Shown one piece after another: positions 1,896 through 53,131 of a stretch of 64,000 nt of DNA. The stretch lies in contig JBEKRC010000003.1 in NCBI GenBank assembly GCA_049997875.1, positions 115,687 to 179,686 on the forward strand. Reading direction: 5' to 3'. Position numbers and translations under genes: made by a program. Below the pieces are notes generated by a model. The model did not search any database. It saw only the letters and a list, made by a program, of their open reading frames with translations, and was not told where the DNA came from. The DNA is from Minisyncoccia bacterium. GTDB lineage: Bacteria > Patescibacteriota > Minisyncoccia > UBA6257 > 2-01-FULL-56-20. Positions within the stretch are counted from its first letter, which is position 1. The number at the start of each line of letters is the position of its first letter.

Positions 1896-1911
1896 TGGAC
1901 GATCTTCGAAC
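1896..1911 (+). repeat. 16-nt motif TGGACGATCTTCGAAC (copy 1 of 3)
   Basis: Identical 16-mer also at 3153-3168; one-mismatch copy at 2309-2324. Confidence 0.6.
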
Positions 1912-3152: not shown

Positions 3153-3168
3153 TGGACGATCTTCGAAC
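3153..3168 (+). repeat. 16-nt motif TGGACGATCTTCGAAC (copy 3 of 3), flanked by the 7-bp inverted repeat AGGAGTG/CACTCCT
   Basis: Lies between the divergent pilin gene and a small ORF. Confidence 0.6.
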
Positions 3169-3567: not shown

Positions 3568-3590
3568 GGGCTACCCCATAAAGGTAGCCC
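3568..3590. terminator. Palindromic hairpin GGGCTACC-ccataaa-GGTAGCCC, possibly a bidirectional terminator
   Basis: Perfect 8-bp stem between convergent transcription units. Confidence 0.4.
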
Positions 3591-3636: not shown

Positions 3637-3758
3637 GCGCATGAGCGTTGGTTTTTGGAGCATCCCGGAGCCACAACGGCTTGAGGCGACCTTCAGGTCG
3701 CCTGTTGCAGCGAGGGCGAGCGGCGTTTCCCCGCTGGAGGAAACGACCGCTCATGCGC
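3637..3758 (-). terminator. Complex intrinsic terminator after fusA. An 11-bp closing stem (GCGCATGAGCG) encloses a conserved multi-hairpin insert of about 90 nt.
   Basis: Starts at the fusA stop codon. On the minus strand the stem is followed by CGCTGCCTTTTTTG. The interior is homologous to 7153-7244. Confidence 0.5.
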
Positions 3759-5863
3759 TAGCGCTTCTTCCCCTCTATAATAAGCTGCGCCACATTGTTG
3801 GGCGTCGGCTCATAGTGATCAAATTCCATCGTGAACGAACCGCGTCCCTGCGACATTGAGCGGAGCTCGGTCGCGTAGCCGAACATTTCGGAAAGCGGGA
3901 CTTTCGCGTCAATCACCTTCAGCCCCGGCCGGTCGCCAAGCGATTCAATGCGGCCGCGCTTTGAGTTTAATTGGCCCGTCACTTCGCCCAAGAAATCCGG
4001 CGGGACGAGCACCTGCAATTTCATAATTGGCTCCAGTATCACCGGCTTCGCACGCCTTGCGGCCTCCTGAAACGCGATGGATCCCGCGATCTTGAACGCC
4101 GCCTCCGACGAGTCCACTTCATGGAACGAACCGTCATACAAAGTCACCTCAACGTCGGTCACCGGATAGTGCGCGAGAATGCCTTTATCCAAGGCCTCCT
4201 TCACTCCTTTCTCCGTCGCCGGAATGAATTCATGGGGAATGATACCTCCTTTGATCTCATCCAAAAATACGAACCCCGTGCCGCGTTCAAGCGGTTTCAC
4301 GCGCAGCCACACATGGCCATATTGTCCGCGCCCGCCGGATTGGCGGATGTATTTTCCTTCCGCTTCCGCTTCACCCAAGATTGTTTCCTTGTATGCAACT
4401 TGAGGCCGACCCACATTTGCTTCCACGCCAAACTCCCGCTTCATGCGGTCCACAATGATCTCCAAATGCAGCTCGCCCATGCCGGAAATGATCGTTTCGC
4501 CGGTATCCGGATCCCCTGCCACACGGAAGGTTGGGTCCTCCTCGGCGAGCCGGTGCAGGGCCGTACCCATCTTTTCCTGATCAACCTTCGTCTTCGGTTC
4601 AATGCGAATGCCAATCACGGGCTCGGGAAAAGTGATGCGCTCCAAGACGATTGGCGAATCAGGATCACAGAGTGTGTCCCCCGTCGTCGTATTTTTGAGG
4701 CCGACAATTGCCGCAATCTCGCCCGCATAGACCTCCTCCACCTCCTCGCGATCATTCGCATGCATGCGGACCACGCGCCCGATGCGTTCCTGATTATCTT
4801 TGGTCGCATTCAAAATATACGAGCCGCGCCTCAAAACGCCGGAATAATTCCTGAAATACGTGAGTGTGCCGACGTAGGGGTCCGTTGCGATCTTAAACGC
4901 AAGTGCCGAGAACGGTTCTTCGTCGCTTGCGTGGCGCGTGATTTCCGCGCCCGTTTTTAGATCATGGCCTGTGACCGGCGGCAAATCCGTCGGTGCCGGC
5001 AGATACTCCACAACAGCATCCAATATGAACTGTACCCCTTTGTTCTTCAAGGCCGAGCCGCAGAACACCGGAACGATTTTGTTCGCGATCACCGCCTTGC
5101 GCAGCACGCGGCGAAGCTCCTCAATGCCAATCTCCTTTCCGTCCAGATACGCCGCCATCGCCCCGTCGTCGTTTTCGGCAATTTTTTCAATCAGCTTGTG
5201 GCGGTGCTTCGCAATGTCCGCCTTCATCTCGTCCGGGATCGGGATTTCAACTATCTTCTCGCCATGCTCGCCTTCAGACCCAAACGCCTTGTTCAAAAGG
5301 AGGTCCACGATCCCCCTGAAATTCCCTTCCAAACCGATCGGCAGCTGCACCGGGATAGCATGCGGCGTGAGCCGGTCAAGAATTGATTGAAAACTCCCCA
5401 TAAAGTTCGCGCCCATCCGATCAAGTTTGTTGATAAAGCAGATGCGCGGCACATTGTATTCGTCCGCATAGCGCCAATTCGTTTCCGACTGCGGTTCAAC
5501 GCCCGCGACGCCGTCAAACACGACGACCGCGCCGTCCAAAACGCGGAGCGACCGCTTCACCTCAACCGTGAAGTCAATGTGTCCCGGCGTATCTATCAAA
5601 TTGATGCGATGTTCAAAATTTTTGTCGTGATTGCGGTACGTCGGCGTCCAGAACGCGGTCGTCGCGGCCGAGGTGATCGTGATGCCGCGCTCGCGCTCCT
5701 GCTCCATCCAATCCATTATGGTGTCCCCCGTGTGCACCTCGCCGATCTTGTGCGAAACGCCCGTATAAAAAAGCACCCGCTCCGAGACGGTCGTCTTTCC
5801 GGCATCAATATGGGCAATGATGCCGATGTTTCTTACCTTTTCAATAGGATATTGTCGAGGCAT
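3758..5863 (-). CDS. fusA: Elongation factor G
   Basis: AHIDAGKTT and DTPGHIDF GTPase motifs; full-length EF-G architecture. Confidence 0.97.
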
Positions 5864-7053: not shown

Positions 7054-7127
7054 GGGCCTGTAGCTTAGTGGCAGAGCAGCCGGTTTGCATCCGGCAGATA
7101 GGGGTTCGATTCCCCTCAGGTCCACCA
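7054..7127 (+). tRNA. tRNA-Ala (TGC) with encoded CCA
   Basis: Cloverleaf built by hand: acceptor GGGCCTG/CAGGTCC, anticodon loop TTTGCAT, T-arm GGGGTTCGATTCCCC, 3' CCA. Confidence 0.9.
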
Positions 7128-7269
7128 GGAATAACGAATACTCTTAAAAGGGACGGTGTCGTTTCCTCCGGCGGGGAAACGCACCTCGCTCTCGCCACGG
7201 CAGACGACCTAAAGGTCGTCTCAAACCGCCGTGGCTCCGAGATGCCCTTTTAAGAGTATTCGTTATTCC
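7128..7269 (+). terminator. Complex terminator-like structure. A perfect 25-bp stem (GGAATAACGAATACTCTTAAAAGGG) encloses a conserved multi-hairpin insert of about 90 nt.
   Basis: Begins immediately after tRNA-Ala and is followed by a T-rich run. The interior has GTTTCC-N8-GGAAAC and GACGACC-N4-GGTCGTC hairpins homologous to the fusA 3' element. Confidence 0.5.
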
Positions 7270-7283
7270 TTATTGTTCTCTTG

Positions 7284-7413
7284 GGGAATCAAACGAGGAA
7301 AGGGGTCGGGGAAACCTTAGGTTTCCCCGTGTCGGAAAGAAGTTGAGAACCGTGGGTTCTCAAAGCGCAGGCCGGTCTTACCGGCCGAGCAGTGAGATTC
7401 CCCTCATGTCCAC
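7284..7413 (+). ncRNA. Conserved structured element E1, a candidate ncRNA or mini integrated element. It ends with a duplicate of the tRNA-Ala 3' end.
   Basis: About 85 percent identical to 36367-36517 over the conserved blocks, with compensatory hairpin changes. The 3' end GATTCCCCTCATGTCCAC copies the tRNA-Ala T-stem plus acceptor. Confidence 0.4.
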
Positions 7414-7493
7414 GGAGAACAAGCAAGGCAGTGAGACTCCCCTTAAAAAGGGAGCCGCAGTGGCTCTCTCGTGGCAACACACTGCGGCCCAAC

Positions 7494-7790
7494 TCACGGC
7501 AACAAAAACGGCATAAAAATGCGTTCGCTACCCAGGAGTCTTTGCAGATAAAGATGGCGTAGGATCGGCGGATCGCCCACGAAGAACACTTCCACCGTCA
7601 TCTCCCCTTTTCGACTTAACTTGGTAGCACAAAGGGATTCAATCGCCCTTTCTCCTTCCTCCACCTGGAGAAGTTCGAGGGCAGTGAAGAGTTCGCGACG
7701 GAACTCAAGAGCGCTCGGCGGGATCATAATGACCACTATTTTCCCGCCGCGGGCAAGACGAAGCTCGTTTCCATTCAGTATCACGTTCAC
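7494..7790 (-). CDS. Hypothetical protein (98 aa)
   Basis: ORF only; weak resemblance to small beta-grasp proteins. Confidence 0.35.
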   Translation of the reverse strand: MNVILNGNELRLARGGKIVVIMIPPSALEFRRELFTALELLQVEEGERAIESLCATKLSRKGEMTVEVFFVGDPPILRHLYLQRLLGSERIFMPFLLP

Positions 7791-7847
7791 CTCCAGTAGA
7801 ACGATTCAAGAAAAAAACCGACTATATCATATCATAAAACAGAACCA

Positions 7848-8486
7848 TCACAACCCGAGCGGTTGGCCGGTGAAAATAAGAAAAAGAAAATTGACGAGCG
7901 GCATAAGGAGCTGGAATCCAAAGAACACGAAAATAAGGACGAGGAAAAGCCCCCAGCGTTCCAAGAAATACATCACGCGGTAAGTTGCCTGCGTTTGCGG
8001 GAGCGCGGCGAAAAGCACGCGCGAACCGTCCAGCGGCGGAATGGGAACGAGGTTGAAAATGCCGAGAAGGACGTTGATGAACACGACGACCCCAAGGAAG
8101 GAAAGAAATGCATCGGAGACAAAGGGCAAATAGCTCAATATGCGAACGAGAATCCCGAAGATCACGGCGATGAGCAAGTTTGTTCCCGGTCCCGCGAGCG
8201 CGATTTTGACCGAGCCGGTTCGCGGATTCTTAAGATTGCGTGGATCATAGGGCACCGGCTTCGCGGCGGCGAAAAAGAATGCTCCGTCGGAGGCAATGTA
8301 AAGGAAGATAGGCAGGAGAATCGAACCGAAGGGATCCAGATGCTTCAAGGGATTGAGCGTGAGGCGTCCCGCGTTCCGCGCCGTGGGATCCCCCAGCCGT
8401 TCCGCCTCATAACCGTGCGCGATCTCGTGCAGCACCGCCGAAAAAAGCAGGACGATGAATTCAAACACAACGATTGCGACGTTCAT
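7848..8486 (-). CDS. Peptidase M50 family (site-2-protease-like) membrane metalloprotease
   Basis: HEIAHG HExxH motif in a TM helix; LDG motif; polytopic membrane protein. Confidence 0.85.
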   Translation of the reverse strand: MNVAIVVFEFIVLLFSAVLHEIAHGYEAERLGDPTARNAGRLTLNPLKHLDPFGSILLPIFLYIASDGAFFFAAAKPVPYDPRNLKNPRTGSVKIALAGPGTNLLIAVIFGILVRILSYLPFVSDAFLSFLGVVVFINVLLGIFNLVPIPPLDGSRVLFAALPQTQATYRVMYFLERWGLFLVLIFVFFGFQLLMPLVNFLFLIFTGQPLGL

Positions 8487-10911: not shown

Positions 10912-12834
10912 TTACTGCGGTGATGGCGTCCAATCTGCGAGCGCGGCCTGCGTGCAAGTTGTGGTGCCGCACATAGTCGTACCATCAGAGCCGGTTCCCG
11001 CAAAGACATAGTGCACAATGCCCTGCTGGTCCGCGTACGACGCGAGGTCGTTCCAGACGGTGACGGATCCGCCGGGCGTGTTGGTTTGGTCCGCGCGCAT
11101 CGTCCAGAGTTCCTGTGCGGGACGAGAGGTACCGGAAACGGAGATGGCGCAGGCGTCGGTCTTCGTGAGATCGGCGCTGCCAATGCGAGAGCATGACCCT
11201 GCCACCGTGAGTCCAACCTGGCTTCCCAAATTCAGGATTGAACTCATGGCAATGTTTACGCTTGAAGCGCCCGTGCCGGTGCCATTGTCTCCCCACCAGA
11301 CGTACAGAATGGTCTGCGACCAGTTGCTGGGGTTATCAGGATTGACGGCAATGGTGAAGTCCTGGTTCGTGGCGCTCCAATACGTTGAACATCCCCACAA
11401 CACCTGGCCGGTCCCGCTGTTGAACAACCGGCAATTGTAACTGTGATTCCCGGCAGCAACCTGCCCGGACATAAGCGGCGTGCCGGTGAGCGAATAAGGG
11501 CCTTCGGCCCAACCATGTATCAGGTTGCCGCCTTTTTCCCCCGTGCCGATCGTCCAGAGATGATCGGGGAACATAGCGACTCCGGTTACTGGATTTGTGA
11601 AGTTCGGGTCGTCATCATAGCCGTTCACCGCGAACGGGTCTTGTTGCATTACTCCGCTTGCGGAATTCAAAACCACTATCCAGCCGCCGCTGCTGTACCA
11701 GCCACTTTGCGGATCCTGCAAGCGGTAGTCGGAGTTCGTTCCGACATAGAGAGCGGAACCAAGGATGTTGATGGTTTTTGCTTCGGTGCGCACGCCGGGC
11801 CCGGAGGTAGGCAGTTGGAAATCGGCGAGCGCGAGAACATCGAGTGTGTTGCTCGCCAAGCCAACTTGCCAAACCATTGCGGAGCGGGTTGCGGTGCTGT
11901 TGGGATCCAATTGCTGCCAGCCCGCCGCGTAGGCAACCATGCCGTCGGCGCTAATCACTATTTGGTTGATTTGGCACGCCGTCGGCGAGTTGCTCCACTT
12001 ATCGAGCAAGTTGTGAGCGTTGTCGTAAAGTGCAAGCCCACAACTTGTTGCGGTAGCGTCTGCCATAATGCGCAACGCACCAAGAGCGGTAACCGCCACG
12101 GCCGTTGCCTGGTCGTTAACGTTCTTGCCATCCACTTGGGGAGTACGGTATGTGAGGTGGTTGAAGTTCACCACGAGCGTAGCCCCGTTCAGGCTGCAGC
12201 CGGTCACCCCGTTCGGGGCGTAGGTCCAACCCGAGCCACTGATGGTAGTGCTGCTTTGTGTTTCGCCAGTCACAGTGGTACCAGAAACGGTGGCCACCGC
12301 GGTGTTGCCGGAAACGAAGCTGCCGCCCGTGAAGCCCGTGGGCGCCGAGGCGGTGCTTGTTCCATTCACCGTAATGACGGCGGGCGTGAGCACCACCACA
12401 TTGCCTGTAGTAGGACAAGGACCAGCGCTTACCACGTACTTCACAGTCGCGGTCTGCGGGCTGTTGTCGGCGTTGGGATCAGCGACGCTGACCGTACAGG
12501 TCGACGTGCCGACGCTTGCCGGAGCAGCCACGGTAACCGTGAGCGCAATGCTGCCACCCACGGCGACACTACCAGAGGTCGGTGCCACATAGCACCAACT
12601 CTGGCCGGCGGCCACTGTCCAATTTAAGCTGGCCGTGCCGGTGTTCTCTACCATCAGGGTCTGCCCCGACGGTGCCGTTCCTCCCATAATTGCGTTGAAA
12701 GTGAGTGTCATGGGAGAAAGAACGATGTTAGGCTGGGGCAGCTGCCGAGTAGTCCCTCCCCCGCCGCAACTGGTCAAGGTCAGCCCTAGGAGGCTGACCA
12801 GAACCACCAATAAGCACTTCTTTTCTGTATTCAT
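10912..12834 (-). CDS. Surface lipoprotein with Ig-like (BACON/Big_2-like) domains
   Basis: LTLTSC lipobox; domains with the pattern NTGTASLNW...W...P.SG also found in the 20758 giant protein. Confidence 0.75.
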   Translation of the reverse strand: MNTEKKCLLVVLVSLLGLTLTSCGGGGTTRQLPQPNIVLSPMTLTFNAIMGGTAPSGQTLMVENTGTASLNWTVAAGQSWCYVAPTSGSVAVGGSIALTVTVAAPASVGTSTCTVSVADPNADNSPQTATVKYVVSAGPCPTTGNVVVLTPAVITVNGTSTASAPTGFTGGSFVSGNTAVATVSGTTVTGETQSSTTISGSGWTYAPNGVTGCSLNGATLVVNFNHLTYRTPQVDGKNVNDQATAVAVTALGALRIMADATATSCGLALYDNAHNLLDKWSNSPTACQINQIVISADGMVAYAAGWQQLDPNSTATRSAMVWQVGLASNTLDVLALADFQLPTSGPGVRTEAKTINILGSALYVGTNSDYRLQDPQSGWYSSGGWIVVLNSASGVMQQDPFAVNGYDDDPNFTNPVTGVAMFPDHLWTIGTGEKGGNLIHGWAEGPYSLTGTPLMSGQVAAGNHSYNCRLFNSGTGQVLWGCSTYWSATNQDFTIAVNPDNPSNWSQTILYVWWGDNGTGTGASSVNIAMSSILNLGSQVGLTVAGSCSRIGSADLTKTDACAISVSGTSRPAQELWTMRADQTNTPGGSVTVWNDLASYADQQGIVHYVFAGTGSDGTTMCGTTTCTQAALADWTPSPQ

Positions 12835-13040
12835 CTTACCCTCCTGTTGGTCAACCTCCTACGGCTGACCTCATATTCAGCTTACAGCCCGGGTTCCCTC
12901 AATCAGCGAAGGCTACCCGTTAGCTACCTATACTATACCAGTTTCCGCGTAAAAACGCAAGGTTTGGACTGGACCGAACTCAAGCGATCGTTCAAACGAT
13001 TGGAAAAGCCGAATTTATGGTACATTAACCATACAAACCC

Positions 13041-20757: not shown

Positions 20758-23700
20758 ATGTACTCAATGGATAAAAGGCATTTTGTTCTCATTGCCGCCG
20801 CTCTCGTAGTGCTAGGCTTCGTTTTGATTTCTCCTCGTTCTGCCTTGACTCAAAGTTCTCAAGGGGATGGCAGCATTTCTCTTTCCAACGTCGTGAGCGG
20901 CACTTATACGATCGTGGTCACGGGGCAGGACCCCTCCGGCAGCTCCGTCGGCACGACAACGCTAACGGTGACCGTGACCACGCCGCCCTCCTGCCCCACC
21001 TCAAGCAATACCGTCACCCTCACGCCTTCCACGATCACGGTCGGCGGGACGAGCATCGCCTCGGCTCCCGCGGGCTTCACGGGCGGCAGCTTCTCTTCTA
21101 ATAACTCCTCGATAGCCAGCTCCCTCCAGGTGAACCCCGCCCCCACGGCCCACATCGTCCTTGCCCCCGCAAGCTTTTCCTTCTCTGGCGTCTCGGGCGG
21201 GGCGACGCCCGCGGGCAAGACCATGGCTATAGAGAACACCGGCACGGCGACCCTGACCTCCTGGACGGCGACCATCGCATCCTCCACAAGCTGGTGCCAC
21301 GTGAGCCCGGCATCGGGGAACAACGTTGCGGCGGGCGGTTCCCAGAACGTCACGGTGTCGGTGGATGCGCCCACGAACACCGGCGCCTTCTCCTGCACTA
21401 TCACCGTCGCCGGCAATGCCGACAACAGCCCGCAGAATGCGACCTACACGGTGACGGCGCCCAGCATCTCTCTTTCCCCCCAAAGCTTCTCCTTCTCGGG
21501 CGTCTCGGGCGGGGCGACGCCTGCCGGCCAGACCATGGCCATTACGAACACCGGCACGGCGACCCTGAACTGGACGGCGTCAGGGGTGCCCGGCAAGACG
21601 GGCACCTGGTGCCACATAAGCGATGCCTCGGGCACCGTTCCGGTGGGCAAAAACTGGCAGGAGAGCGAGCTCGTCACGGTGACGGTGGACGCGCCAACGA
21701 ACATAGGGACCTTCACCGACTGCGGCATCCGCATCACCGACTCCCATGCCGACAACAGCCCGCAGGATGCCACGATCACCTACACGGTGACGGCACCCCT
21801 CCCTCCCTCCTGTCCCACCTCAAGCAACGCCGTCACCCTCACGCCTGCGACCATCACGGTCGGCGGGACGAGCATCGCCTCCGCTCCCACGAGCTGGACG
21901 GGCGGCAGCTTCCTTTCTAGTAGCTCCTCGATAGCCAGCGTTTCCGGCACCACCGTGACCGGCGTCGCCGCGGGCAGCGCCACAATCAGCGGATCGGGAT
22001 GGAAGGCCCCCAACGGGGCGACGGGCTGCAGCTTGAGCGGGGCCGCCCTCACGGTGACGGGGCAGCCCACGCTTGTCATCTCCCCGCCATCGACGTCCAC
22101 CACGGTGGGAGGCACGGCCTCGTTCACGGCCTACTATGATCCTGACGGTTCCGGGCCACAGCCACAGCAGAACGTGACGGCGAGCGCAAGTTGGTCCTCC
22201 TCTTCTTCCACGATCGCGAGCTCGCAGGGAAGCGGCCAGTTCAAGGGGGTGAAATCGGGCACGGCAACCGTGAAGGCTATCTACGGAGGCCTTACGGCGA
22301 CAGCCATCCTGAATGTCAATGCCGTGGGCACGCCGGACTTCTCCCTCACGGTTTCCCCCCCGAGCCAGTCCATCATGCAGGGCACAAACGGCACCTACAT
22401 CGTGACGGCGTCCAGCTCGGGTGGGTTCAGCGGTTCCATCAATCTTTCCGCCACCAATCTTCCGTCAGGCGTGACCGCGACATTCTCCCCCGCCAGCATC
22501 ACGCCGGGCAATTCCTCCAATCTCACCCTGACCGTGGGCAGCGGCGTGCTCCCGGGCGCGTATACCTTCTACGTCAAGGGCACGTCGGGGTCGCTGATCC
22601 ACAGCTACCCGGTGGGGCTCACGGTCACCGCCGCCCCCACAGCCCATATCGTCCTTGTCCCCACAAGCTTCTCCTTCTCGGGCGTCTCGGGCGGGGCGAC
22701 GCCTGCCGGCCAGACCATGGCCATCAAGAACACCGGCACGGCGACCCTGAACTGGACGGCGTCAACCATATATGGCTGGGACCAGTTGAACCCAACCTCG
22801 GGGAACGTTACGGCGGGCGGTTCAAAGAACGTCGCGGTGACGGTGAGCCCGCCTTCGAACGTCGGGATCTTCCCCGATACTATCACCGTCAGCGGCAATG
22901 CCGACAACAGCCCGCAGCAAGCCTCCGTGACGTACACAGTGACAAGTTCCTCGCCGCCCACCTCGCCCTCGCCCACTCTTTCCCTATCCATCGCTCCGGA
23001 GGAGATCGCGCTCGGCCAATCAGCGTCCCTCGTCTGGTCAACGGCGAATGCGACTGCCTGCACCGCCTCCGGCAACGACCCGACTGAATGGTCGGGGTCG
23101 CAAGCGATAGGACAGAACCAGCAGGCTGTCATGTCGCCTTCCCCAGTGGGGACCTATACCTACACCCTCACCTGCACCGGCCCTGGCGGGAGTACGGCGC
23201 AGTCGGCGACCCTCGTGGTAGACCCCGGTTACGTCGGCGGCCCCACGCCATTTGGTTGCACATGTACGGAAGTTTCAGACCTTAGCGAAGTCACCTGTCC
23301 TCCCAATTGTCCCTATCCGTCGCTCGCCGCCTGCCAAGCGGCATGTTCAGCCTCCAATCCTCCCGGTCCCTCCAATCGGCTTACTATCTCCCCCGCAAGT
23401 CTATATCTTTCTGTTGGCGGCCAGAGCGGCAAATTCACGTTGACGTACAATGGCATCGACGTAACTACCGCCGCCACCTGGACCGCCGGCCAACACACTA
23501 CGGTATCAAATGGTGTGGTAACGGCAGTCTCATACGCCGTGTGGGACCCTATCATGGCGAACTACCAAGGAAACTGGACGGAGGGTATTGTTTACATATA
23601 TCAGTCGCCATCCGGTCCGTCTGGGCCGTCCGGCCCGTCCGGGCCCACATGCCCGGGTGGAAATGGCTGCCCGCCTCCGCCCTCCTGCACCTTCACCGCC

Positions 23701-23999: not shown

Positions 24000-26879
24000 A
24001 TGGATTTTTGGAGGAAAAATCGGGGCCAGTCGCTTATTGAGGCCATCATCGCGGTTGCCGTCGGCGCGGCATTTTTCATCGCCGGCGCGGGGATCATCGC
24101 GCCCGCCCTCAAGACGAGCAAGCAAACGCGCGTCATCCAAACGCAGACGGAGCTCGCAAAGGAACTCTTGGACGACGCAAAAGTATGGGCCACGGCGAAC
24201 TGGAATAATCTCCTCGCGCTCGCCACTACCTCGGCAAATCAATATCATCTTCTGACCGTGCAATCGCCATACTCCCCGGCAACGGGCACCGAGACGGTGG
24301 CCATCGGAGCCCCCACGAACGGCCTCGTCGGCTGGTGGACATTTGACGAGGGAACGGGATCAACGACGTATGATTCCTCGGGGAACAATAATAATGGGAC
24401 GTGGTACGGGGCGGCATCGGGTACCTCCGGCTACTACTCCGCAGGCAAGGTGGGACCATGGGCGGGGTACTTCAATGGGAGCAATGACTATCTCCAAACA
24501 CCGAATCTTTCAGCTATTAATTCTAGTACCCAACCATTTTCCGTAGCAGCCTGGTTCAATGCCAGTGCTGCGGGTGTAATTGTCGATGAAACTGGTCAGA
24601 CGAGCATAAATACTGGCTGGCATGATAGTTGGATAGAACTTCTATCAAGCGGAAGTGTTGGAGTAAGAATATGGAACTGTACATCCACAACAGCTGGGAC
24701 CGCAAACCTTAATGTATGGAATCACGTAGTACTTACATATGATGGTAGCAATCTCCATGGCTACTTGAATGGAGTAGCAAATGGCTCTGTGGCGTGTGCC
24801 AGATCTAGCCCGGGAGCTAGCGGTCATGGGGAATATCTTAATTTAGGTGGAAACGATTCGACTAATCTTGGCAGCGGTGCTTGGTTCAGTGGAATAATAG
24901 ACGATGTCCACGTCTACAACCGTGCCCTCTCGGCGGCGGAGGTTCAGGCACTCTATAGCAGCTCCGCGACGGCTTACCAACGCTATTTCTATTTGAGCGA
25001 CGCGTATCGCACCGCGGCGGGGAACCTCACCACGACCGCGAGCGGAAATTATTATGATCCCTCCGCAAAGCTCGTGACCGCGGTCACGACCAACACAAGC
25101 ACCAATTCTCTCGCATACGCCACGACGACCATGAGCGAATATCTCACCCGCTATGCCAATAATATTTATGATCAAAGCGATTGGTCGGGCGGCTCCGGGC
25201 AAGACACTCCCGTCACGGTCGCGGGCAACACCTTCGCGACATCCACCAATATAGTCACCAATACCGCGGGGCAGCTCACGCTATCAACGGCACCTAGCGG
25301 CCTCGTCGGCTGGTGGACCTTTGACGAGGGGACCGGCACGACGGCGTACGATTTAAGCGGAAACGGGAACAACGGAACGTTTAGTTCACCCGCGCCCACT
25401 TGGACGACCGGGAAGGTAGGGAGCGGCGCTTTGAGTTTCAATGGTACGAGTAGTTATGTAAGCGTACCTTCGGGTCCCACGCTTACCTATAATCCGATTA
25501 CGTTCGCGGTATGGGTTAATGAACCAGCAAGCACACTCGGAACTTTTATGATCGGGAAATCGACGTACGGAGGATTTTTGCGGGATTACGGGAACGGTCA
25601 ATACGAATGGGATATATACTCAGGGAGCGAGCATAATATCTTTGCGACGATCCCGTCTTATAATCAATGGCATTTTGTTGTCGGCACCTACGACGGGAGC
25701 GTCCAAAAATTGTATGTTGACGGCACCCTCGCGACATCGACAAATTTATCCGTCACTCCCCAATCGACTACCGACTTCGGCATAGGCGCATGCATATTTT
25801 GCGGTCCTGGTCAATTTACACATGGGTTGCTCGACGACGCCCGCATTTATAACCGCGCCCTTTCGGCTACCGAGGTTCAGATGCTCTACAACGCGAGCGG
25901 TACGCTGGATTCGGCAACCTTTGGAGCGACCGCGGGAGACCAATTGAACTCGGTTACGTGGCTGGGAAGTACGAGCACAAGCAACGGGACGGTAAAATTC
26001 CAATTCGCGGTGAGCAATACGAGCGCCTCAAGCACGCTGCAGAGTTTTCTGGGGCCCGACGGGACCTCGCTCTCCTATTTCGGCGGGACGAACGGAGCCA
26101 CCGAGGGCACTCCCGTGAACCTCTGTTCCACTTCCACTTCCAACGGCTACTCCCTTTTCAGCGGCTACCCATACTTCCGGTATCGCATTACCCTCTTCTC
26201 AAACGCGTCAACCCCCCCCATGAGCGGCCTGGTCGGCTGGTGGACATTTGACGAGGGGACGAGCACGACAGCCTATGATTCCAGCGGGAATGGGAACAAT
26301 GGGAGCTGGTATGGGACGGCTGGGGGAACGAGTGGATACTACTCCGCGGGCAAGGTGGGACAGTGGGCGGGGCATTTCGACGGAACCGACAATTATATAC
26401 TCATGGCTAGTAGCAGCATACTTTCGAGTTTTTCTGTTGCGGCATGGATAAACCCCGCCTCTCTTACTAGTCGGTCTGAGATTCTTGGTTACGCCGACAT
26501 CTTTTTTAATATACAAAATGGAAAAATCTGTCAGTATGTCGCGGGAGTAAACTCAAGCTATTTGTGTGGAAATACATCAGTTCCTACTAGTAGTTGGTCG
26601 TTTGCTGTTGCGACATGGGACGGTAGCACCGAGAAAATATTTTATAATGGTTCACCGGATGGCTCAGTAGTTCTATCTGGGACTCCGGCCAGCTGGAATA
26701 CCCCCAATATTGGTGTTTGTGGCTCTGGATGTGGATTCTTAGGTTATTTCCCAGGCCTCATCGACGATGTCCGCATCTACAACCGCGCCCTCTCCCCTAC
26801 CGAGGTTCAGGCACTCTATAGCAGCTATGGCAGTGGCAGTCCGACGGTAAATCAGGTTATCATAAACTGGAGTCCGTGA
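24000..26879 (+). CDS. Giant type IV pilin-like protein with three LamG (concanavalin-like) domains
   Basis: N-terminus MDFWRKNRGQSLIEAIIAV is a prepilin signal. GLVGWWTFDEGTG...YDSSGNGNNG is repeated three times. Confidence 0.8.
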   Translation: MDFWRKNRGQSLIEAIIAVAVGAAFFIAGAGIIAPALKTSKQTRVIQTQTELAKELLDDAKVWATANWNNLLALATTSANQYHLLTVQSPYSPATGTETVAIGAPTNGLVGWWTFDEGTGSTTYDSSGNNNNGTWYGAASGTSGYYSAGKVGPWAGYFNGSNDYLQTPNLSAINSSTQPFSVAAWFNASAAGVIVDETGQTSINTGWHDSWIELLSSGSVGVRIWNCTSTTAGTANLNVWNHVVLTYDGSNLHGYLNGVANGSVACARSSPGASGHGEYLNLGGNDSTNLGSGAWFSGIIDDVHVYNRALSAAEVQALYSSSATAYQRYFYLSDAYRTAAGNLTTTASGNYYDPSAKLVTAVTTNTSTNSLAYATTTMSEYLTRYANNIYDQSDWSGGSGQDTPVTVAGNTFATSTNIVTNTAGQLTLSTAPSGLVGWWTFDEGTGTTAYDLSGNGNNGTFSSPAPTWTTGKVGSGALSFNGTSSYVSVPSGPTLTYNPITFAVWVNEPASTLGTFMIGKSTYGGFLRDYGNGQYEWDIYSGSEHNIFATIPSYNQWHFVVGTYDGSVQKLYVDGTLATSTNLSVTPQSTTDFGIGACIFCGPGQFTHGLLDDARIYNRALSATEVQMLYNASGTLDSATFGATAGDQLNSVTWLGSTSTSNGTVKFQFAVSNTSASSTLQSFLGPDGTSLSYFGGTNGATEGTPVNLCSTSTSNGYSLFSGYPYFRYRITLFSNASTPPMSGLVGWWTFDEGTSTTAYDSSGNGNNGSWYGTAGGTSGYYSAGKVGQWAGHFDGTDNYILMASSSILSSFSVAAWINPASLTSRSEILGYADIFFNIQNGKICQYVAGVNSSYLCGNTSVPTSSWSFAVATWDGSTEKIFYNGSPDGSVVLSGTPASWNTPNIGVCGSGCGFLGYFPGLIDDVRIYNRALSPTEVQALYSSYGSGSPTVNQVIINWSP

Positions 26880-31134: not shown

Positions 31135-32205
31135 TTACTGCCACCACTCAACGATCACAATGCCGGTGCCGCCGGTGCCGCCGCTCGCGCCAGCGGTGGT
31201 GGTGGCGGTACCGGCGCCGCCGCCGCCGCCACCAGCGGCGGTGCCGCCGGTGCCGCCGGCGGTGCTGGCAGGACCGCCGACCTTGGCACCGGTGCCGCCA
31301 GCACCGCCAGTGCCGCTACCATAGCCGCCATAGCCACCACCGCCACCGCCACCACCGCTGGCACCGCCGGCACCACCACCGTTAGGGGCACCACCAGCAC
31401 CGCCATTGCCGAAAACACCGCCACCGCCACCGCCAGCGCCAGCGACGTTGGTGGCGGCTGTGGCGGCGGCGCCGGCGTTGTAGCCGCCGCCACCACCGCC
31501 ACCGTAGCCATAGATGCCGTTGCCGTTACCCCCGCCAGCGCCACCACTACCGGCGACACCGCCAGCACCGCCACCGCTGATGACGCCGGCGCCGCCGCCG
31601 GCACCGCCGCCATAGCCGCCACCGGTGCCGCCGCTTAGGTTGGCGGAACCAGCGCTGCCAGCACCGCCACCACCGCCACCGCTAGCCACAACAAGCGTCC
31701 CAAAAGAAGAAGCAGCACCTGAACCGCCGGCGCCACCGGCACCGCCACCGCCACCGCCGGCGCCGACCGTAACCGAAACACTACTACTGGTTGCCGCAAC
31801 AGGATAACGCACATAACACACGCCGCCACCACCACCGCCGCCGGGACTACCTGAATATGCAGCTGCGCCGTTGCCACCGCCGCCGCCACCGCCGCCACCA
31901 CCGCATACCGTTACCCACACCGTAGACGTCGCTAAAGAAGTCGTCCACGTGCCACTCGCAGTGAAGATCTGTATCTGCGGCGTTTTCCCGCCGCTTCCCG
32001 CGAGAATGGCGGTATCAACATACGCCTTCGTTGCCGCATCACTGGATGCCGTCGTCGTCGTAAGCCCCGTGATGCGGGCGGGAATCGTGATCACGCCGCT
32101 CACGGAGGCGTTCACCTCGTTCAGGCGGCTATAAAGGTAAAGCGCCGCCGCGAATGCGACAATCGCAAACATTGCAACGATGAGAATCTTGTACTTCGTT
32201 TCCAT
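31135..32205 (-). CDS. Gly-rich membrane-anchored protein (poly-GGxGG low complexity)
   Basis: N-terminal TM METKYKILIVAMF; more than 50 percent Gly/Ala with GGAGG repeats. Confidence 0.65.
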   Translation of the reverse strand: METKYKILIVAMFAIVAFAAALYLYSRLNEVNASVSGVITIPARITGLTTTTASSDAATKAYVDTAILAGSGGKTPQIQIFTASGTWTTSLATSTVWVTVCGGGGGGGGGGNGAAAYSGSPGGGGGGGVCYVRYPVAATSSSVSVTVGAGGGGGGAGGAGGSGAASSFGTLVVASGGGGGGAGSAGSANLSGGTGGGYGGGAGGGAGVISGGGAGGVAGSGGAGGGNGNGIYGYGGGGGGGYNAGAAATAATNVAGAGGGGGGVFGNGGAGGAPNGGGAGGASGGGGGGGGYGGYGSGTGGAGGTGAKVGGPASTAGGTGGTAAGGGGGGAGTATTTAGASGGTGGTGIVIVEWWQ

Positions 32206-36286: not shown

Positions 36287-36299
36287 CGGGCAAAGCAAA

Positions 36300-36364
36300 A
36301 GGGATTTGAAAGGAGTACTCAGAAGGGCTCCTTTCAAATCCCTTTTGCTTTGCTTTGTCTTCTA
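36300..36364 (+). terminator. Long perfect hairpin (26-bp stem) terminator after tRNA-Glu
   Basis: GCAAAGCAAAAGGGATTTGAAAGGAG, loop, then the reverse complement, followed by TTTGTCTTCT. Confidence 0.55.
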
Positions 36365-36366
36365 TC

Positions 36367-36493
36367 GGGAATCGAACGAGGAAAGGGGTCGGGGAAACCC
36401 TAGGTTTCCCCGTGTAGGAAGGTCGCGCGTTGCGCGCGACAGTTCGGCACCGAGGGTGCCGAAAGCGCAGGGCGCGAAGCGCCCGAGCAGTGA
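36367..36493 (+). ncRNA. Conserved structured element E2, homologous to E1
   Basis: Shares GGGAATCGAACGAGGAAAGGGGTCGGGGAAACCYTAGGTTTCCCCGTGT, AAAGCGCAGG and GAGCAGTGA blocks with E1; variable hairpins co-vary. Confidence 0.4.
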
Positions 36494-36517
36494 GATTCCC
36501 GGTGGGGCTACGAAAAT
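36494..36517 (+). repeat. Duplicate of the tRNA-Glu 3' end (GATTCCCGGTGGGGCTACGAAAAT); att-like direct repeat, copy 2
   Basis: Its first 20 nt are identical to tRNA-Glu 36268-36287; its last 20 nt (36498-36517) are identical to 37795-37814. Confidence 0.7.
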
Positions 36518-36577
36518 CCCGTAGATGCCAGAAATAAGAAAGCTGCGGGATCTCTTCAGACCCCGCAGATGTAATCC

Positions 36578-48190: not shown

Positions 48191-48262
48191 TTCCGGCGTA
48201 GCTCAATGGTAGAGCGGCTCCCTGTTAAGGAGATGGTTCCAGGTTCGAGTCCTGGCGCCGGA
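48191..48262 (+). tRNA. tRNA-Asn (GTT)
   Basis: Acceptor TCCGGCG/CGCCGGA, anticodon loop CTGTTAA, T-arm CCAGGTTCGAGTCCTGG; anchor of the downstream repeat array. Confidence 0.85.
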
Positions 48263-48264
48263 GC

Positions 48265-48294
48265 ACCTAGTAAAAGTATCCGGGAGACCGAGAG
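48265..48294 (+). repeat. B-motif prototype (CCTAGTAAAAGTATCCGGGAGACCGAGAGG) directly after tRNA-Asn
   Basis: Recurs after most A-motif copies in the array. Confidence 0.7.
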
Positions 48295-48323
48295 GTCGTA
48301 GTCAATTCGATATACTTAAGATC

Positions 48324-48725
48324 ATGGATCAAAAGAAGATTGCTCCTATTATTGTCATTGTCGGTGCTACCGCCATGCTGGTCGGGGCACTTGATCCATT
48401 GGAAGGATCGGTCGTCATCCTGGTGGGCAGTGGCTTGGTGGCACTCGGCACATTCCTGAGCAATGCTAGCCGACGCTTGCGTGTTTACTGGATATGGACT
48501 TTCCTCCTGATAGCGTTCGGAGTCGGCGTGATGTTCGGAGCGAGCGCGATGGGAGGTTTTGGCGGCACTACCGGACGTTCGATATGGTGGGCAGTTCTAG
48601 TTCTGCCCTATCCTGTTGGCTGGGTGATGGGTGTCGTCAATCTGTTTTTCAGACTTAGACGAAAACGCGGTTATCGAGACAAGGGCGTTTTCCCCTCTCC
48701 CCCAGATTCTCACTTCGTCCAGTGA
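48324..48725 (+). CDS. Polytopic membrane protein (cassette 1)
   Basis: GATATACT -10; four TM helices. Confidence 0.6.
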   Translation: MDQKKIAPIIVIVGATAMLVGALDPLEGSVVILVGSGLVALGTFLSNASRRLRVYWIWTFLLIAFGVGVMFGASAMGGFGGTTGRSIWWAVLVLPYPVGWVMGVVNLFFRLRRKRGYRDKGVFPSPPDSHFVQ

Positions 48726-48735
48726 GCGGAGCGGA

Positions 48736-48765
48736 GAAAAATATAGTGAGTAGCGGGGTGGGGTA
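48736..48765 (+). repeat. G-rich C-motif (ATAGTGAGTRGCGGGGTGGGGTAAC), copy 1
   Basis: Also at 49993-50024 and 51319-51349, with a partial copy at 51581-51596. Confidence 0.6.
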
Positions 48766-48841
48766 ACTTTTTAGGTTAAGCCACCGGTTGCAAATCCGGT
48801 ATATAGATATGCTGATTTTCCTCTAATGCCTTGCAAATTCT

Positions 48842-48901
48842 GGTTCTAACGTCGTCCACGATGCGGAGCGGACAACATTTTTTATCGGATAGACCGAGAG
48901 G
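48842..48901 (+). repeat. Array repeat R1: A-motif (GGTTCTAACGTCGTCCACGATGCGGAGCGG) plus the B' variant
   Basis: Copy of the tRNA-Asn 3' end region. Confidence 0.75.
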
Positions 48902-48938
48902 CCCCAATTTTTCAAGATTCTTTAGAACCGAGGCAGGA

Positions 48939-48997
48939 GGTTCTAACGTCGTCCACGATGCGGAGCACCTAGTTAAAGTATTGGGGAGACCGAGAGG
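48939..48997 (+). repeat. Array repeat R2: A-motif plus B-motif
   Basis: 40 of 47 nt identical to the tRNA-Asn 3' end plus flank. Confidence 0.75.
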
Positions 48998-49077
48998 CAT
49001 CGGTTTGGCAGAAGCAGAAATCCATGCTATGTTCATTGCTGGAAGTTGGGTTTCAAAATTCTTTATTGGGGGTGGTT

Positions 49078-49278
49078 ATGTTACCAGGGAATCGGGTGCG
49101 AGTACGCGAAGAAAAGCGAGATGAGCCCCTGCTGCGAGGGTTGCCTCCCGTCCCTCCAAAGGGCTATGGGGTAGAGAAGGTGGTGAGTGACCCAGAGTGC
49201 CCCTTGGGAACGCAGGCTCAAATCCTCATAAAGCTGGATGGCGTAACAGATTTGTTGCCAGAGGTTCTTTTCCGTTAG
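49078..49278 (+). CDS. Small hypothetical protein (66 aa)
   Basis: ORF in the cassette between R2 and R3; weak. Confidence 0.3.
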   Translation: MLPGNRVRVREEKRDEPLLRGLPPVPPKGYGVEKVVSDPECPLGTQAQILIKLDGVTDLLPEVLFR

Positions 49279-49382
49279 GCGATGTGCCGATCAAATTACC
49301 AAGATGGGGTCGCGTCTGGCCCCATCCCAACTTAAACCTACAAAAAGCTTGCGGTTTTAGGTTGGGATAAGGTATTGATGGT

Positions 49383-49412
49383 GGTTCTAACGTCCTCCAG
49401 CCGCCGGGACGC
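49383..49412 (+). repeat. Array repeat R3 (A-motif)
   Basis: GGTTCTAACGTCCTCCAGCCGCCGGGACGC. Confidence 0.75.
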
Positions 49413-49562
49413 AATCCCGAAATTGGAAATGGGCAAGTCGTTTTCGACCTGCCCATTGTATCCGCCGATAGCATCTCGGGTTTCATCGACCCGTAGCGCT
49501 TGAAGGCCTCGGCGGGGGCCTTTCTTCCAGCAAACTAGAGGTTATCGTCGATCGCGATTGCG

Positions 49563-49934: not shown

Positions 49935-49961
49935 CTCGGGAAATCTGCGAACCTGATGCGA

Positions 49962-50024: not shown

Positions 50025-50097
50025 CTAGACTAAGGCTAATAATCCCCTGATTTCCCTCATAGCAAGAGTGGGATCGGGCAAGGCTGCCTCCCACCCA

Positions 50098-50158: not shown

Positions 50159-50167
50159 GGCAAAATA

Positions 50168-53126: not shown

Positions 53127-53131
53127 GCAGA

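What the first reader, a model, noticed from the sequence alone, without database searches (positions are those of the whole stretch)
3637..3758. Conserved multi-hairpin insert of about 90 nt inside two otherwise unrelated long-stem terminators (after fusA and after tRNA-Ala)
The minus-strand sequence directly after the fusA stop (3637-3758) and the plus-strand sequence directly after tRNA-Ala (7128-7269) each form a long perfect closing stem, 11 bp in one case and 25 bp in the other, with unrelated stem sequences. Each stem is followed by a T-tract.

Inside the stems sits a clearly homologous interior: GTCGTTTCCTCCRGCGGGGAAACGC...CGCTCGC...CAGRCGACCTRAAGGTCGYCTCAARCCG..GTGGCTCCGRGATGC. It contains two conserved hairpins, GTTTCC-N8-GGAAAC and GRCGACC-N4-GGTCGYC.

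Conserved interior structure with a free closing stem points to RNA-level function. Candidates are a protein-binding or processing element embedded in terminators of highly expressed genes, or a REP/MITE-like structured repeat.
Basis: seen in the sequence. Interest (0 to 1): 0.6.

Follow-up and report, generated by a model that had tools for sequence, protein, structure and literature searches.

The report
Structured RNA module capping long hairpins
Two copies of a previously undescribed, about 92-base three-armed folded element sit at the tip of very long perfect hairpins after fusA and tRNA-Ala in a tiny-genome (CPR, Minisyncoccia) bacterium; relatives keep it under clear selection, so it probably has a function, most likely as an RNA, but that function is unknown.

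Summary
An 88-92-nt interior at 3661-3747 (-) and 7153-7244 (+) is 83% identical. It lies inside long stems of unrelated sequence. The 11-bp fusA stem is what remains of a 25-bp perfect stem that is still intact in a related genome.

Fifteen copies from Minisyncoccia (Patescibacteria) metagenomes share one fold: a long closing stem P1 (17-32 bp), hairpin P2, and a P3-P4-P5 arm with an invariant CAAGCC bulge. 96% of pair cells are standard pairs and 26 of 34 pairs show double changes. No Rfam family matches.

The stems are not pre-existing terminators. P1 plus core recurs as one 158-165-nt unit at unrelated loci, and orthologous sites without the element carry ordinary short terminators.

It is not neutral junk. 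At the fusA site the core differs at 3 of 92 positions where synonymous sites differ at 45%. Four lineages keep a copy there, each with a different perfect P1.

Copy number is low (two per 0.9-Mb chromosome). Orientation relative to genes is mixed, and I found no target duplication, transposase or promoter.

Best reading: a co-transcribed RNA module whose long stem acts as a processing or 3'-end structure. This is inferred, not shown. The main rival is a foldback MITE acting as DNA.

The parts
3637..3758 (-). A-type copy of the element, starting at the last base of the fusA stop codon (TAG = 3760-3758). P1 is truncated on its 5' side.
   Evidence: I3; 96.8 bits. Compared with the intact orthologue at L006 2172-2313.
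3748..3758 (-). Remnant of the P1 5' arm (GCGCATGAGCG). 19 nt (TTGGTTTTTCGGAGACGCG in the relative) have been deleted. The deletion junction recreates the basal GCGG of P2.
   Evidence: Pairwise alignment with L006. All five same-species contigs carry the same deletion.
3661..3747 (-). Core: P2 (3750-3720, apical loop CAGC 3736-3733), P3 (CCC 3716-3714 with GGG 3666-3664), P4 (3711-3704 with 3677-3670), P5 (3703-3684, tetraloop TGAA), and the 3' bulge CAAGCC (3683-3678).
   Evidence: There are 3 substitutions in 92 nt relative to L006, all compatible with the structure.
3637..3660 (-). Full-length P1 3' arm (CTCCAAAAACCAACGCTCATGCGC). Only the outer 11 nt are still paired.
   Evidence: 24 of 25 positions identical to L006.
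3568..3590 (-). Conventional terminator-like hairpin (GGGCTACC...GGTAGCCC followed by TTGTTGTTGT), 45 nt downstream of the element. It is the likely real end of the str-operon transcript.
7127..7270 (+). B-type copy of the element, starting at the last base (A76) of tRNA-Ala.
   Evidence: MFE -91.2 kcal/mol, z = -12.2; 119.7 bits.
7127..7152 (+). P1 5' arm (AGGAATAACGAATACTCTTAAAAGGG). It pairs perfectly with 7245-7270.
   Evidence: I15, I9. It is partly homologous to the P1 of L008, L010 and L024.
7153..7244 (+). 92-nt core: J1/2 AC, P2 (7155-7158 with 7182-7185; bulge T7159; 7160-7168 with 7173-7181), P3 (7189-7191 with 7239-7241), P4 (7194-7201 with 7228-7235), P5 (7202-7209 with 7214-7221, loop TAAA), bulge CAAACC (7222-7227).
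7245..7270 (+). P1 3' arm, followed by the T-rich tail TTATTGTTCTCTT.
7054..7127 (+). tRNA-Ala(UGC), the gene directly upstream of the B-type copy.
3758..5863 (-). fusA (EF-G), the gene directly upstream of the A-type copy and the last gene of rpsL-rpsG-fusA.
36290..36353 (+). 'Empty' counterpart: a 26-bp perfect hairpin with the 12-nt loop TACTCAGAAGGG directly after tRNA-Glu. It is homologous to a 29-bp hairpin after tRNA-Lys in L028.
   Evidence: (I16).

Best explanation
The element is a low-copy, dispersed module of 105-165 nt found in Minisyncoccia (CPR) bacteria. It consists of a long, nearly perfect closing duplex P1 (17-32 bp) capped by a conserved three-way-junction core. The core has hairpin P2 with a UCC-containing loop, and a P3-P4-P5 arm with an invariant CAAGCC bulge.

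It most likely works as RNA. It has no promoter of its own, so it would be transcribed as part of the neighbouring, usually highly expressed, transcript. These are the 3' ends of fusA, map and murG, and tRNA operons. The long P1 duplex would then define its ends. It could serve as a substrate for a double-strand-specific RNase such as RNase III, or as a block to 3' exonucleases. Either would leave a compact, stable junction RNA whose conserved loops bind a protein or another RNA.

Shown:
- the family exists and shares one fold
- there is strong covariation in all helices, together with conserved unpaired bases
- there is purifying selection at orthologous loci
- P1 plus core is dispersed as one unit

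Inferred:
- it is transcribed with the host gene
- P1 is cleaved or protects the RNA end
- the core has a function in trans or by binding a protein

The perfect but fast-changing P1 arms are best explained by selection for an uninterrupted duplex, possibly helped by intrastrand template switching between the arms. That is also an inference.
For: Structure:
- The same three-way junction is predicted for each of 14 copies folded individually and by RNAalifold (17 of 34 pairs with compensatory changes).
- On 15 copies, 96.4% of cells are paired and 26 of 34 pairs have changes on both sides. None of 500 shuffles reached these values, and slid controls gave 40-49% paired.
- In the distant copies L028 and L039 the P2 helix sequence is almost completely replaced. 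The unpaired UCC loop, the CAAGC bulge and the UCC bulge persist there; in L029, which lacks P5, only the P2 replacement can be seen.

Selection:
- For fusA, window vs L006, pS = 0.446 and dS = 0.68. Over the same comparison the core differs at 3 of 92 positions, and the P1 3' arm matches at 24 of 25 positions.
- The DNA beyond P1 is no longer alignable.
- Between L012 and L026 the element is about 91% identical, against 78-79.5% for the coding flanks.
- The fusA 3' site is occupied in four lineages (window, L006, L029, L039), although fusA dS between them is 1.3-1.8 or saturated.

Placement:
- P1 starts 0-20 nt after the stop codon or tRNA end at 5 distinct loci, and 60 nt upstream of a tRNA-Thr cluster at a sixth.
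- A separate ordinary terminator follows the fusA copy.

Not a known RNA: no Rfam hit, even at E <= 10.
Against: - No expression data could be consulted.
- Three copies (L008, L010, L016) lie antisense to both flanking genes, and two lie in divergent intergenic regions.
- No conserved promoter was seen.
- Folding energy shows no strand asymmetry: the sense strand is more stable in only 6 of 14 copies.
- G-U versus A-C mismatches are about equal, both in P1 (3 vs 3) and in the core (5 vs 3). The functional strand, and even RNA versus single-stranded DNA, is therefore not established.
- The window's fusA copy has lost most of one P1 arm yet keeps its core, so P1 is not strictly required there.
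- The alignments used for the pair counts were fitted to the covariance model, which favours the structure.
Confidence: 0.45

Rival explanations
1. It is a foldback MITE, a selfish palindromic DNA element. P1 is a pair of terminal inverted repeats, and the core is recognised as folded single-stranded or cruciform DNA by a transposase supplied in trans. Its position after genes would only reflect where insertions are tolerated.
For: - P1 plus core recurs as one 158-165-nt unit at unrelated loci.
- B-type P1 is homologous at four loci in three genomes.
- Presence varies between close relatives. The tRNA-Ala site is occupied in the window and empty in L006, L028, L029 and L031. The fusA site is empty in L027, L028, L030, L031 and L038.
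- Orientation relative to genes is mixed.
- There is no strand asymmetry in energy or in mismatch type.
- Two pairs of inverted copies lie 3.4-3.6 kb apart.
Against: - Only 2 canonical copies were found in a complete 898,885-bp chromosome and 2 in the 64-kb window.
- No target-site duplication and no shared terminal sequence between subfamilies.
- No transposase lies near any copy.
- Fixed copies do not decay: 3 of 92 core positions differ where synonymous sites differ at 45%.
- The same site stays occupied over saturated divergence, with the helices covarying.
- The conserved bases are in the loops and not in the duplex ends. This is the reverse of what a transposase binding site would show.
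Confidence: 0.25
2. It is simply a long-stem intrinsic terminator of the kind common in these genomes. A functionless passenger sequence was acquired in its loop.
For: - Perfect hairpins of 17-29 bp with 12-nt loops, often with T-rich tails, follow tRNA-Glu (window), tRNA-Lys (L028), fusA (L030) and other genes.
- The tails after the tRNA-Ala and tRNA-Glu hairpins are homologous.
- Some copies have T-rich tails: window tRNA-Ala, L008 and L029.
Against: - The core is under purifying selection and covaries, so it is not a passenger.
- Most copies lack a T-run after P1.
- The terminator scan does not call P1. It does call a separate hairpin 45 nt downstream of the fusA copy.
- Some copies lie antisense to their neighbours, or upstream of a tRNA.
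- No 'empty' hairpin was found with a stem homologous to any A-, B- or C-type P1.
Confidence: 0.1
3. It is a site that acts at the DNA level for the host, such as a hairpin or cruciform bound by a host protein for replication, recombination or cassette exchange. It may be linked to the tRNA-3'-end-like motifs that bound small variable cassettes in this genome.
For: - There is no strand bias.
- In two genomes the copies form inverted pairs 3.4-3.6 kb apart.
- The motif GTTCGAANATCGTCCA lies 32 nt after the L006 copy, abuts the L010 copy, and marks three cassette-like boundaries downstream of the window's fusA copy.
- The tRNA-Ala copy sits inside a block that ends with a duplicate of the tRNA 3' end.
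Against: - No recombinase or integrase lies within 10 kb of any copy examined.
- The association with the motif holds for only 3 of about 11 loci.
- Conserved single-stranded loops and a three-way junction are more typical of RNA.
Confidence: 0.1
4. The core is a new self-cleaving ribozyme or a ligand-binding aptamer.
For: It is a compact three-way junction with invariant unpaired nucleotides and covarying helices. It appears in scattered genomic contexts, as many small ribozymes do.
Against: - It matches no known ribozyme or riboswitch model at E <= 10.
- It is not in 5' UTRs.
- A 25-bp P1 could not act as a switch helix.
- The L029 variant lacks P5 and the CAAGCC bulge altogether.
Confidence: 0.05

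Closest known systems
Correia elements (CREE/NEMIS) of Neisseria, and similar small palindromic repeats such as ERIC/IRU and RUP (from my own knowledge, not tested here)
   Same: These are units of about 100-160 bp bounded by inverted repeats of about 26 bp and scattered in intergenic regions. They are often co-transcribed with the neighbouring gene. In Correia elements the repeat hairpin in the RNA is cut by RNase III and can affect mRNA stability or termination.
   Different: - Those elements occur in tens to hundreds of copies, with the same terminal repeats in all copies and a TA target duplication. Their interior is not a covarying junction.
- Here there are 2 copies per genome and no duplication.
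- The terminal stems differ between subfamilies, while the interior is the conserved, selected part.
REP/BIME and REPIN elements with RAYT transposases
   Same: They are intergenic hairpin-forming repeats placed just after stop codons, with proposed roles in mRNA 3'-end stability.
   Different: - REPs are short (20-40 nt) imperfect palindromes in high copy number, tied to a RAYT gene flanked by the same hairpins.
- The only Y1 transposase seen (L030 7646-8326) is flanked by an unrelated short hairpin, GAGGACCGTCCTC.
- That locus has no copy of the element.
RNase III processing stems that flank rRNAs, and the phage T7 intercistronic signals (from my own knowledge)
   Same: A long duplex is formed by sequences on both sides of a structured RNA. 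This allows the RNA to be cut out of a longer transcript without a promoter or terminator of its own.
   Different: No cleavage has been shown here. The enclosed RNA is a 92-nt junction of unknown function. The module is dispersed and differs in position between close relatives.
Long-stem intrinsic terminators of the same genomes ('12-nt-loop hairpins')
   Same: They have perfect stems of the same length class (17-29 bp), start right after tRNA or protein genes, and sometimes have T-rich tails. The hairpin after tRNA-Glu occupies the same place in a homologous block as the element does after tRNA-Ala.
   Different: They have a 12-nt loop in place of the 92-nt core. None of them has a stem homologous to a P1 of the element.
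Retron msr-msd non-coding RNA
   Same: The topology is the same: flanking inverted repeats (a2/a1) close a short conserved hairpin followed by a longer variable hairpin. A conserved G follows directly after the 5' arm.
   Different: No reverse transcriptase gene is next to any of the copies. That is a defining feature, and it is not met.

Membership tests
Rho-independent (intrinsic) terminator | Short G+C-rich stem with a loop of a few nucleotides | tested here: not met
   P1 is 17-32 bp and encloses 64-102 nt. The terminator scan does not report it.
Rho-independent (intrinsic) terminator | A run of T starting 0-2 nt after the stem | tested here: not met
   The tail is T-rich in the window tRNA-Ala copy, L008 and L029. 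In the window fusA copy TTTTTT is offset by 7 nt. L006, L010, L019, L024 and L028 have no run.
MITE (Correia/ERIC type) | Terminal inverted repeats | tested here: met
   P1 is 17-32 bp with 0-3 mismatches.
MITE (Correia/ERIC type) | The same terminal repeat sequence in all copies of the family | tested here: not met
   P1 is shared within the B and C subfamilies. It cannot be aligned between A, B, C, L028, L029 and L039.
MITE (Correia/ERIC type) | Target-site duplication | tested here: not met
   No consistent direct repeat flanks P1 in 10 copies.
MITE (Correia/ERIC type) | Many copies per genome, with fixed copies decaying neutrally | tested here: not met
   There are 2 pattern matches in the 898,885-bp chromosome OY970175.1 and 2 covariance-model hits in the 64-kb window. 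The core differs at 3 of 92 positions where fusA pS = 0.446.
MITE (Correia/ERIC type) | An autonomous partner element with the same ends that encodes a transposase | not testable with these tools
   None was seen in about 400 kb of held sequence. Whole genomes could not be fetched.
REP/REPIN | A RAYT (Y1 transposase) gene flanked by the same hairpins | tested here: not met
   The only Y1_Tnp gene (in L030) is flanked by an unrelated short hairpin.
Any Rfam 15 family (including 6S, SRP, 5S, Y RNA, known ribozymes and riboswitches) | A covariance-model match | tested here: not met
   No hit over the element at the gathering threshold or at E <= 10 on either copy.
Retron msr-msd | An adjacent reverse transcriptase gene | tested here: not met
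   Neighbouring genes have no RT domain.
Integron attC | Conserved outer boxes (R''/R') with a variable centre, plus a nearby integrase | tested here: not met
   The pattern is the opposite, with a conserved centre and variable outer stem. No integrase was found nearby.
Conserved structured non-coding RNA (generic) | Covarying base pairs and conservation above the neutral rate | tested here: met
   covariation; selection.
Conserved structured non-coding RNA (generic) | A discrete transcript from a defined strand | not testable with these tools
   No expression data were available. Indirect strand tests were neutral.
RNase III processing stem | An uninterrupted duplex of about 20 bp or more flanking the released RNA | tested here: met
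   P1 is 23-32 bp in most copies. Cleavage itself was not testable.

The most novel reading that the evidence does not exclude
The element would be a previously undescribed class of stable non-coding RNA specific to Minisyncoccia and related CPR bacteria. It would be a promoter-less, portable cassette cut out of highly expressed host transcripts (the str operon, the end of the spc operon, tRNA operons) by way of a long processing duplex. It has been held at the fusA 3' end across lineages whose synonymous sites are saturated. Its conserved three-way junction would have a cellular partner, either a protein or mRNA Shine-Dalgarno regions reached through its exposed UCC loops.
Probability: 0.3. 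Interest if true: 0.7.

Novelty: new variant of a known kind. Interest (0 to 1): 0.5.

Why it matters
CPR bacteria have genomes of about 1 Mb with very little non-coding DNA and almost no described regulatory RNAs.

This element has three features that mark it as a strong candidate for a functional RNA in these uncultured organisms:
- Its core is 97% conserved where neighbouring synonymous sites are 45% diverged.
- Its helices covary completely between distant copies.
- It is kept at the end of the str operon in several lineages.

The architecture suggests a way for an RNA gene to spread and be expressed without its own promoter or terminator. A conserved junction sits on a long stem that stays perfect while its sequence turns over quickly, and the whole unit moves together.

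The element also exposes an unusual genomic habit of this clade: very long perfect hairpins after genes, whose two arms change in step.

Tried and rejected
- **Known RNA families.** Rfam at the gathering threshold and at E <= 10 found nothing.
- **P1 arms as guides or spacers.** No second match to any arm in the window. No exact match of three arms in IMG/VR.
- **Phage origin.** Core, P2 and 3'-part patterns gave 0 hits in viral contigs.
- **RAYT/REPIN link.** The Y1 transposase in L030 is flanked by an unrelated short hairpin, and that locus has no copy of the element.
- **Neighbouring proteins as partners.** There is no conserved neighbour. The small ORFs next to the window copies have no Pfam match.
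- **P1 derived from the target's own flank (inverted duplication).** An alignment of fusA 3' flanks from occupied and empty genomes was not convincing. B- and C-type P1s are carried between loci.
- **Defining insertion boundaries from an empty orthologue of the L008 site.** The flanking methyltransferase is an accessory gene with no close orthologue in the window's species, and the one relative is not syntenic.
- **Strand assignment from folding energy or wobble pairs.** There was no asymmetry.
- **Strain-level variation.** The five same-species contigs are essentially identical (four at 100%, L005 with a single mismatch outside the elements), and both element regions are identical in all five, so they carry no information.
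- **Replication terminus idea for the inverted pairs.** There is no GC-skew inflection near 3-7 kb.
- **Integrase near the tRNA-linked blocks or arrays.** None within 10 kb.
- **Literature searches.** They found no description of such an element in Patescibacteria.

Full report
**1. The observation**

The minus strand after the fusA stop codon (TAG = 3760-3758) and the plus strand after tRNA-Ala (7054-7127) carry the same 88-nt sequence. Its coordinates are 3660-3747 and 7158-7245, and identity is 83%. Two sub-motifs of the interior each occur exactly twice in the 64-kb window, with none expected in shuffles.

After tRNA-Ala the interior is enclosed by a perfect 26-bp stem, 7127-7152 with 7245-7270. 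After fusA only 11 bp pair, but the 3' arm (3660-3637) is full length. In the related chromosome OY970175.1 the same site has a perfect 25-bp stem, GCGCATGAGCGTTGGTTTTTCGGAG (locus L006; about 87% nucleotide identity and 95% EF-G identity). The window copy has lost 19 nt from the 5' side.

The 'T-tract' is weak. After fusA it is TTTTTT offset by 7 nt. After tRNA-Ala the sequence is merely T-rich. An ordinary terminator-like hairpin lies 45 nt beyond the fusA copy, at 3590-3568.

**2. Source and family**

The window comes from an uncultured Minisyncoccia bacterium (Patescibacteria/CPR, close to Candidatus Liptonbacteria) found in peat and soil metagenomes.

- A pattern scan of one genome per species found the element only in OY970175.1, with two copies in 898,885 bp.
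- A looser scan of metagenome contigs found nine more true copies.
- Covariance models then picked up diverged copies in L028, L029 and L039.
- Only the two known copies are in the window.
- Nothing matched in viral contigs or in Rfam, even at E <= 10.

**3. Anatomy**

Every copy folds the same way on its own, and the alignment fold agrees. The parts are:

- P1: a closing stem of 17-32 bp with 0-3 mismatches.
- A two-base junction, AC, followed by the conserved G that opens P2.
- P2: 4 bp, a bulged U, then 8-9 bp, with a UCC-containing loop.
- A CUC linker.
- P3: 3-5 bp.
- A small internal loop, UC opposite UCC.
- P4: 8 bp.
- P5: 5-12 bp with a tetraloop.
- A six-base 3' bulge, CAAGCC.

On 15 copies, 96.4% of pair cells are standard pairs and 26 of 34 pairs have changes on both sides. 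No shuffle out of 500 reached these values. Sliding the partners drops pairing to 40-49% (similar). These alignments were fitted to the model, which favours the structure. An independent MAFFT/RNAalifold analysis already gave 17 of 34 compensated pairs.

In L028 and L039 the P2 helix, invariant in the close copies, is almost entirely replaced by other base pairs. The unpaired UCC, CAAGC and UCC positions stay the same. Conserved loops combined with freely covarying helices are the mark of a folded single strand under selection.

**4. The stems belong to the element**

- L014 and L022 share only a 165-nt stretch (92.7% identity). L016 shares only 158 nt with L012 and L026. The flanks are unrelated in each case.
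- The P1 arms of the window's tRNA-Ala copy, L008, L010 and L024 are homologous to each other even though they lie at four different loci.
- Orthologous sites without the element show no long palindrome.
  - tRNA-Ala in L006, L028, L029 and L031 is followed by unrelated sequence or a short hairpin.
  - fusA in L027, L028, L030, L031 and L038 is followed by ordinary terminators.

So P1 plus core is a dispersed unit. It is not an insert into two pre-existing terminators.

These genomes do also contain a class of perfect 17-29-bp hairpins with 12-nt loops, located right after tRNAs and other genes. The one after tRNA-Glu (36290-36353) is homologous to one after tRNA-Lys in L028. Six differences in the 5' arm are each mirrored in the 3' arm. 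After tRNA-Glu this hairpin occupies the same position in a homologous block as the element does after tRNA-Ala. The 92-nt core therefore stands where a 12-nt loop stands in a related architecture.

**5. Not neutral**

- Between the window and L006, fusA has pS = 0.446 and dS = 0.68. The core differs at 3 of 92 positions. Two of the three create G-U pairs in P4 and one is in a loop. The P1 3' arm matches at 24 of 25 positions. Directly beyond P1 the sequences can no longer be aligned.
- Between L012 and L026, which share the locus after map, the element is about 91% identical and the coding flanks 78-79.5%.
- Between L019 and L011, where the element lies divergent from dnaE and 60 nt upstream of a tRNA-Thr cluster in L019 (the L011 contig ends inside the element), the first 45 core positions differ once. 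The P1 arms are almost unrecognisable as related.
- The fusA 3' site is occupied in four lineages (window, L006, L029, L039). They carry three P1 sequences that cannot be aligned with each other, yet each is perfect. The cores are heavily covaried. fusA dS is 1.8 between the window and L029.

This pattern fits long vertical retention under selection with loss in some lineages. It does not fit a selfish element that decays once inserted.

**6. Context**

P1 starts 0-20 nt after the end of fusA, tRNA-Ala, murG (L024), map (L012 and L026) and a 379-aa gene (L028). It lies in sense orientation upstream of a tRNA-Thr cluster in L019; L011 shares the dnaE-divergent locus, but its contig ends inside the element.

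L008, L010 and L016 lie antisense between two co-directional genes. L014 and L022 lie in divergent regions.

I found no conserved neighbouring gene, no target duplication, no conserved promoter and no nearby transposase, integrase or reverse transcriptase.

In the window the two copies are inverted and 3.4 kb apart. L010 and L024 are adjacent pieces of one contig with inverted copies 3.6 kb apart. This is not general, since the two copies in OY970175.1 are not close together.

Neither folding energies nor wobble counts favour one strand.

**7. Interpretation**

The data establish a new, selected, structured element with a conserved three-way junction and a long closing duplex. It is low in copy number and able to appear at new sites as a unit.

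The reading I prefer (confidence 0.45) is an RNA module that is co-transcribed with strongly expressed neighbours. Its ends or stability would be set by the long duplex, which could be an RNase III substrate or an exonuclease block. Its core would be the functional part. The steps from transcription onward are inference.

The chief rival (0.25) is a foldback MITE acting as DNA. It explains the dispersal and mixed orientation. It does not explain the low copy number, the absence of a target duplication, the loop-centred conservation or the strong purifying selection.

A plain terminator with a passenger (0.1), a host site acting at the DNA level (0.1) and a new ribozyme or aptamer (0.05) are less likely.

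The perfect complementarity of P1 despite rapid sequence turnover suggests selection for an uninterrupted duplex. Template switching between the arms may add to it. That too is inference.

**8. Comparison with known systems**

The nearest analogues are Correia/ERIC-type palindromic repeats and RNase III processing stems. The element resembles both in form. It fails the defining tests for MITEs (shared termini, target duplication, copy number, neutral decay). It also fails those for REP/REPIN (RAYT link), retrons (adjacent RT), attC sites and intrinsic terminators. It matches no Rfam family. I class it as a new variant of a known kind: a palindrome-bounded intergenic module whose interior is the conserved, selected part.

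Noticed in passing
window 7271-7425 and 36354-36525 (+): After the long hairpins that follow tRNA-Ala and tRNA-Glu lies a second conserved structured domain of about 130 nt (three to four hairpins, with conserved junctions such as ACGAGGAAAGGGGUC and GAGCAGUGA). It is closed by a helix whose 3' strand is a duplicate of that tRNA's own T-stem, and it is followed by a decayed duplicate of the tRNA's acceptor 3' strand. The 5' strand of the closing helix changes with the tRNA (GGGGAAUC for Ala, CGGGAAUC for Glu). Fold z-scores are -5.7 and -5.6. There is no Rfam match. It is absent after tRNA-Ala and tRNA-Glu in four relatives.
   Followed up: partly
window 48192-63730 (+): Starting at tRNA-Asn (48192-48264) there is an array of about 16 copies of a motif resembling the tRNA-Asn 3' end (GGTTCTAACGTCGTCCAGCCGCCGGAGC), spaced 560-890 nt apart. 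Some copies carry the extension AGTAAAAGTATCGGGGAGACCGAGAGG. Each copy ends a small cassette with one unrelated gene (NUDIX, HAD hydrolase, peptidase S51, sortase and others) and is often followed by a promoter-like TATAAT. No integrase lies within 10 kb beyond the window end.
   Followed up: partly
window 1896-1911, 2309-2324, 3153-3168 (-); L006 2125-2140; L010 2639-2654: A related T-arm-like motif, GTTCGAANATCGTCCA, marks three boundaries downstream of the fusA element. They delimit a 254-aa gene of unknown function that is missing from the relative. In L006 the motif lies 32 nt after the element, and in L010 it abuts the element.
   Followed up: partly
window 36290-36353; L028 6242-6311; L011 1946-2001; L014 4167-4216 and 4451-4504; L030 12116-12169: A class of perfect 19-29-bp hairpins, all with 12-nt loops. 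The tRNA-Glu (window) and tRNA-Lys (L028) members are homologous, with loops TACTCAGAAGGG and TACTAAGAAGGG, and every stem substitution is mirrored in the other arm. Two members flank the element in L014.
   Followed up: partly
L022 671-804; L028 2973-3150; L031 12604-12732: Other long perfect stems (21, 29 and 16 bp) enclose interiors of 92, 120 and 97 nt that are unrelated to the core studied here. The same hairpin-capped architecture may therefore carry other cargoes.
   Followed up: no
L010 2480-2633 plus L024 263-412 (adjacent pieces of contig Ga0187886_1000465): Two nearly identical B-type copies in inverted orientation, 3.6 kb apart, flank xseB, xseA and a 571-aa OLD-family-like ATPase gene that spans the junction between the two loci.
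   Followed up: partly
L030 7625-7643 and 8402-8420, around the gene at 7646-8326 (-): An IS200-like Y1 transposase gene (PF01797) next to rpsL is flanked on both sides by the same short hairpin, AAGAGGACCGTCCTCTGCG. This is a RAYT/REP-like arrangement in a CPR genome.
   Followed up: partly
window 31160-31900; 20950-22970 with 12264-12685; 24300-26830: Highly repetitive Gly-rich coding sequence with a 9-nt periodicity. Large diverged repeats in inverted orientation between 12.3-12.7 kb and 21-23 kb. Three tandem LamG-like repeats of about 930 nt.
   Followed up: no
window 12777-12871: An inverted repeat of 24 nt, 92% complementary, with a 47-nt spacer (AGGTCAGCCCTAGGAGGCTGACCA / TGGTCAACCTCCTACGGCTGACCT). 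Not examined (I14).
   Followed up: no
L040 (contig end): The contig that carries an 89%-identical EF-G ends 18 nt after the fusA stop codon. This is the position where the hairpin element starts in relatives, so it may be an assembly break at a palindrome.
   Followed up: no
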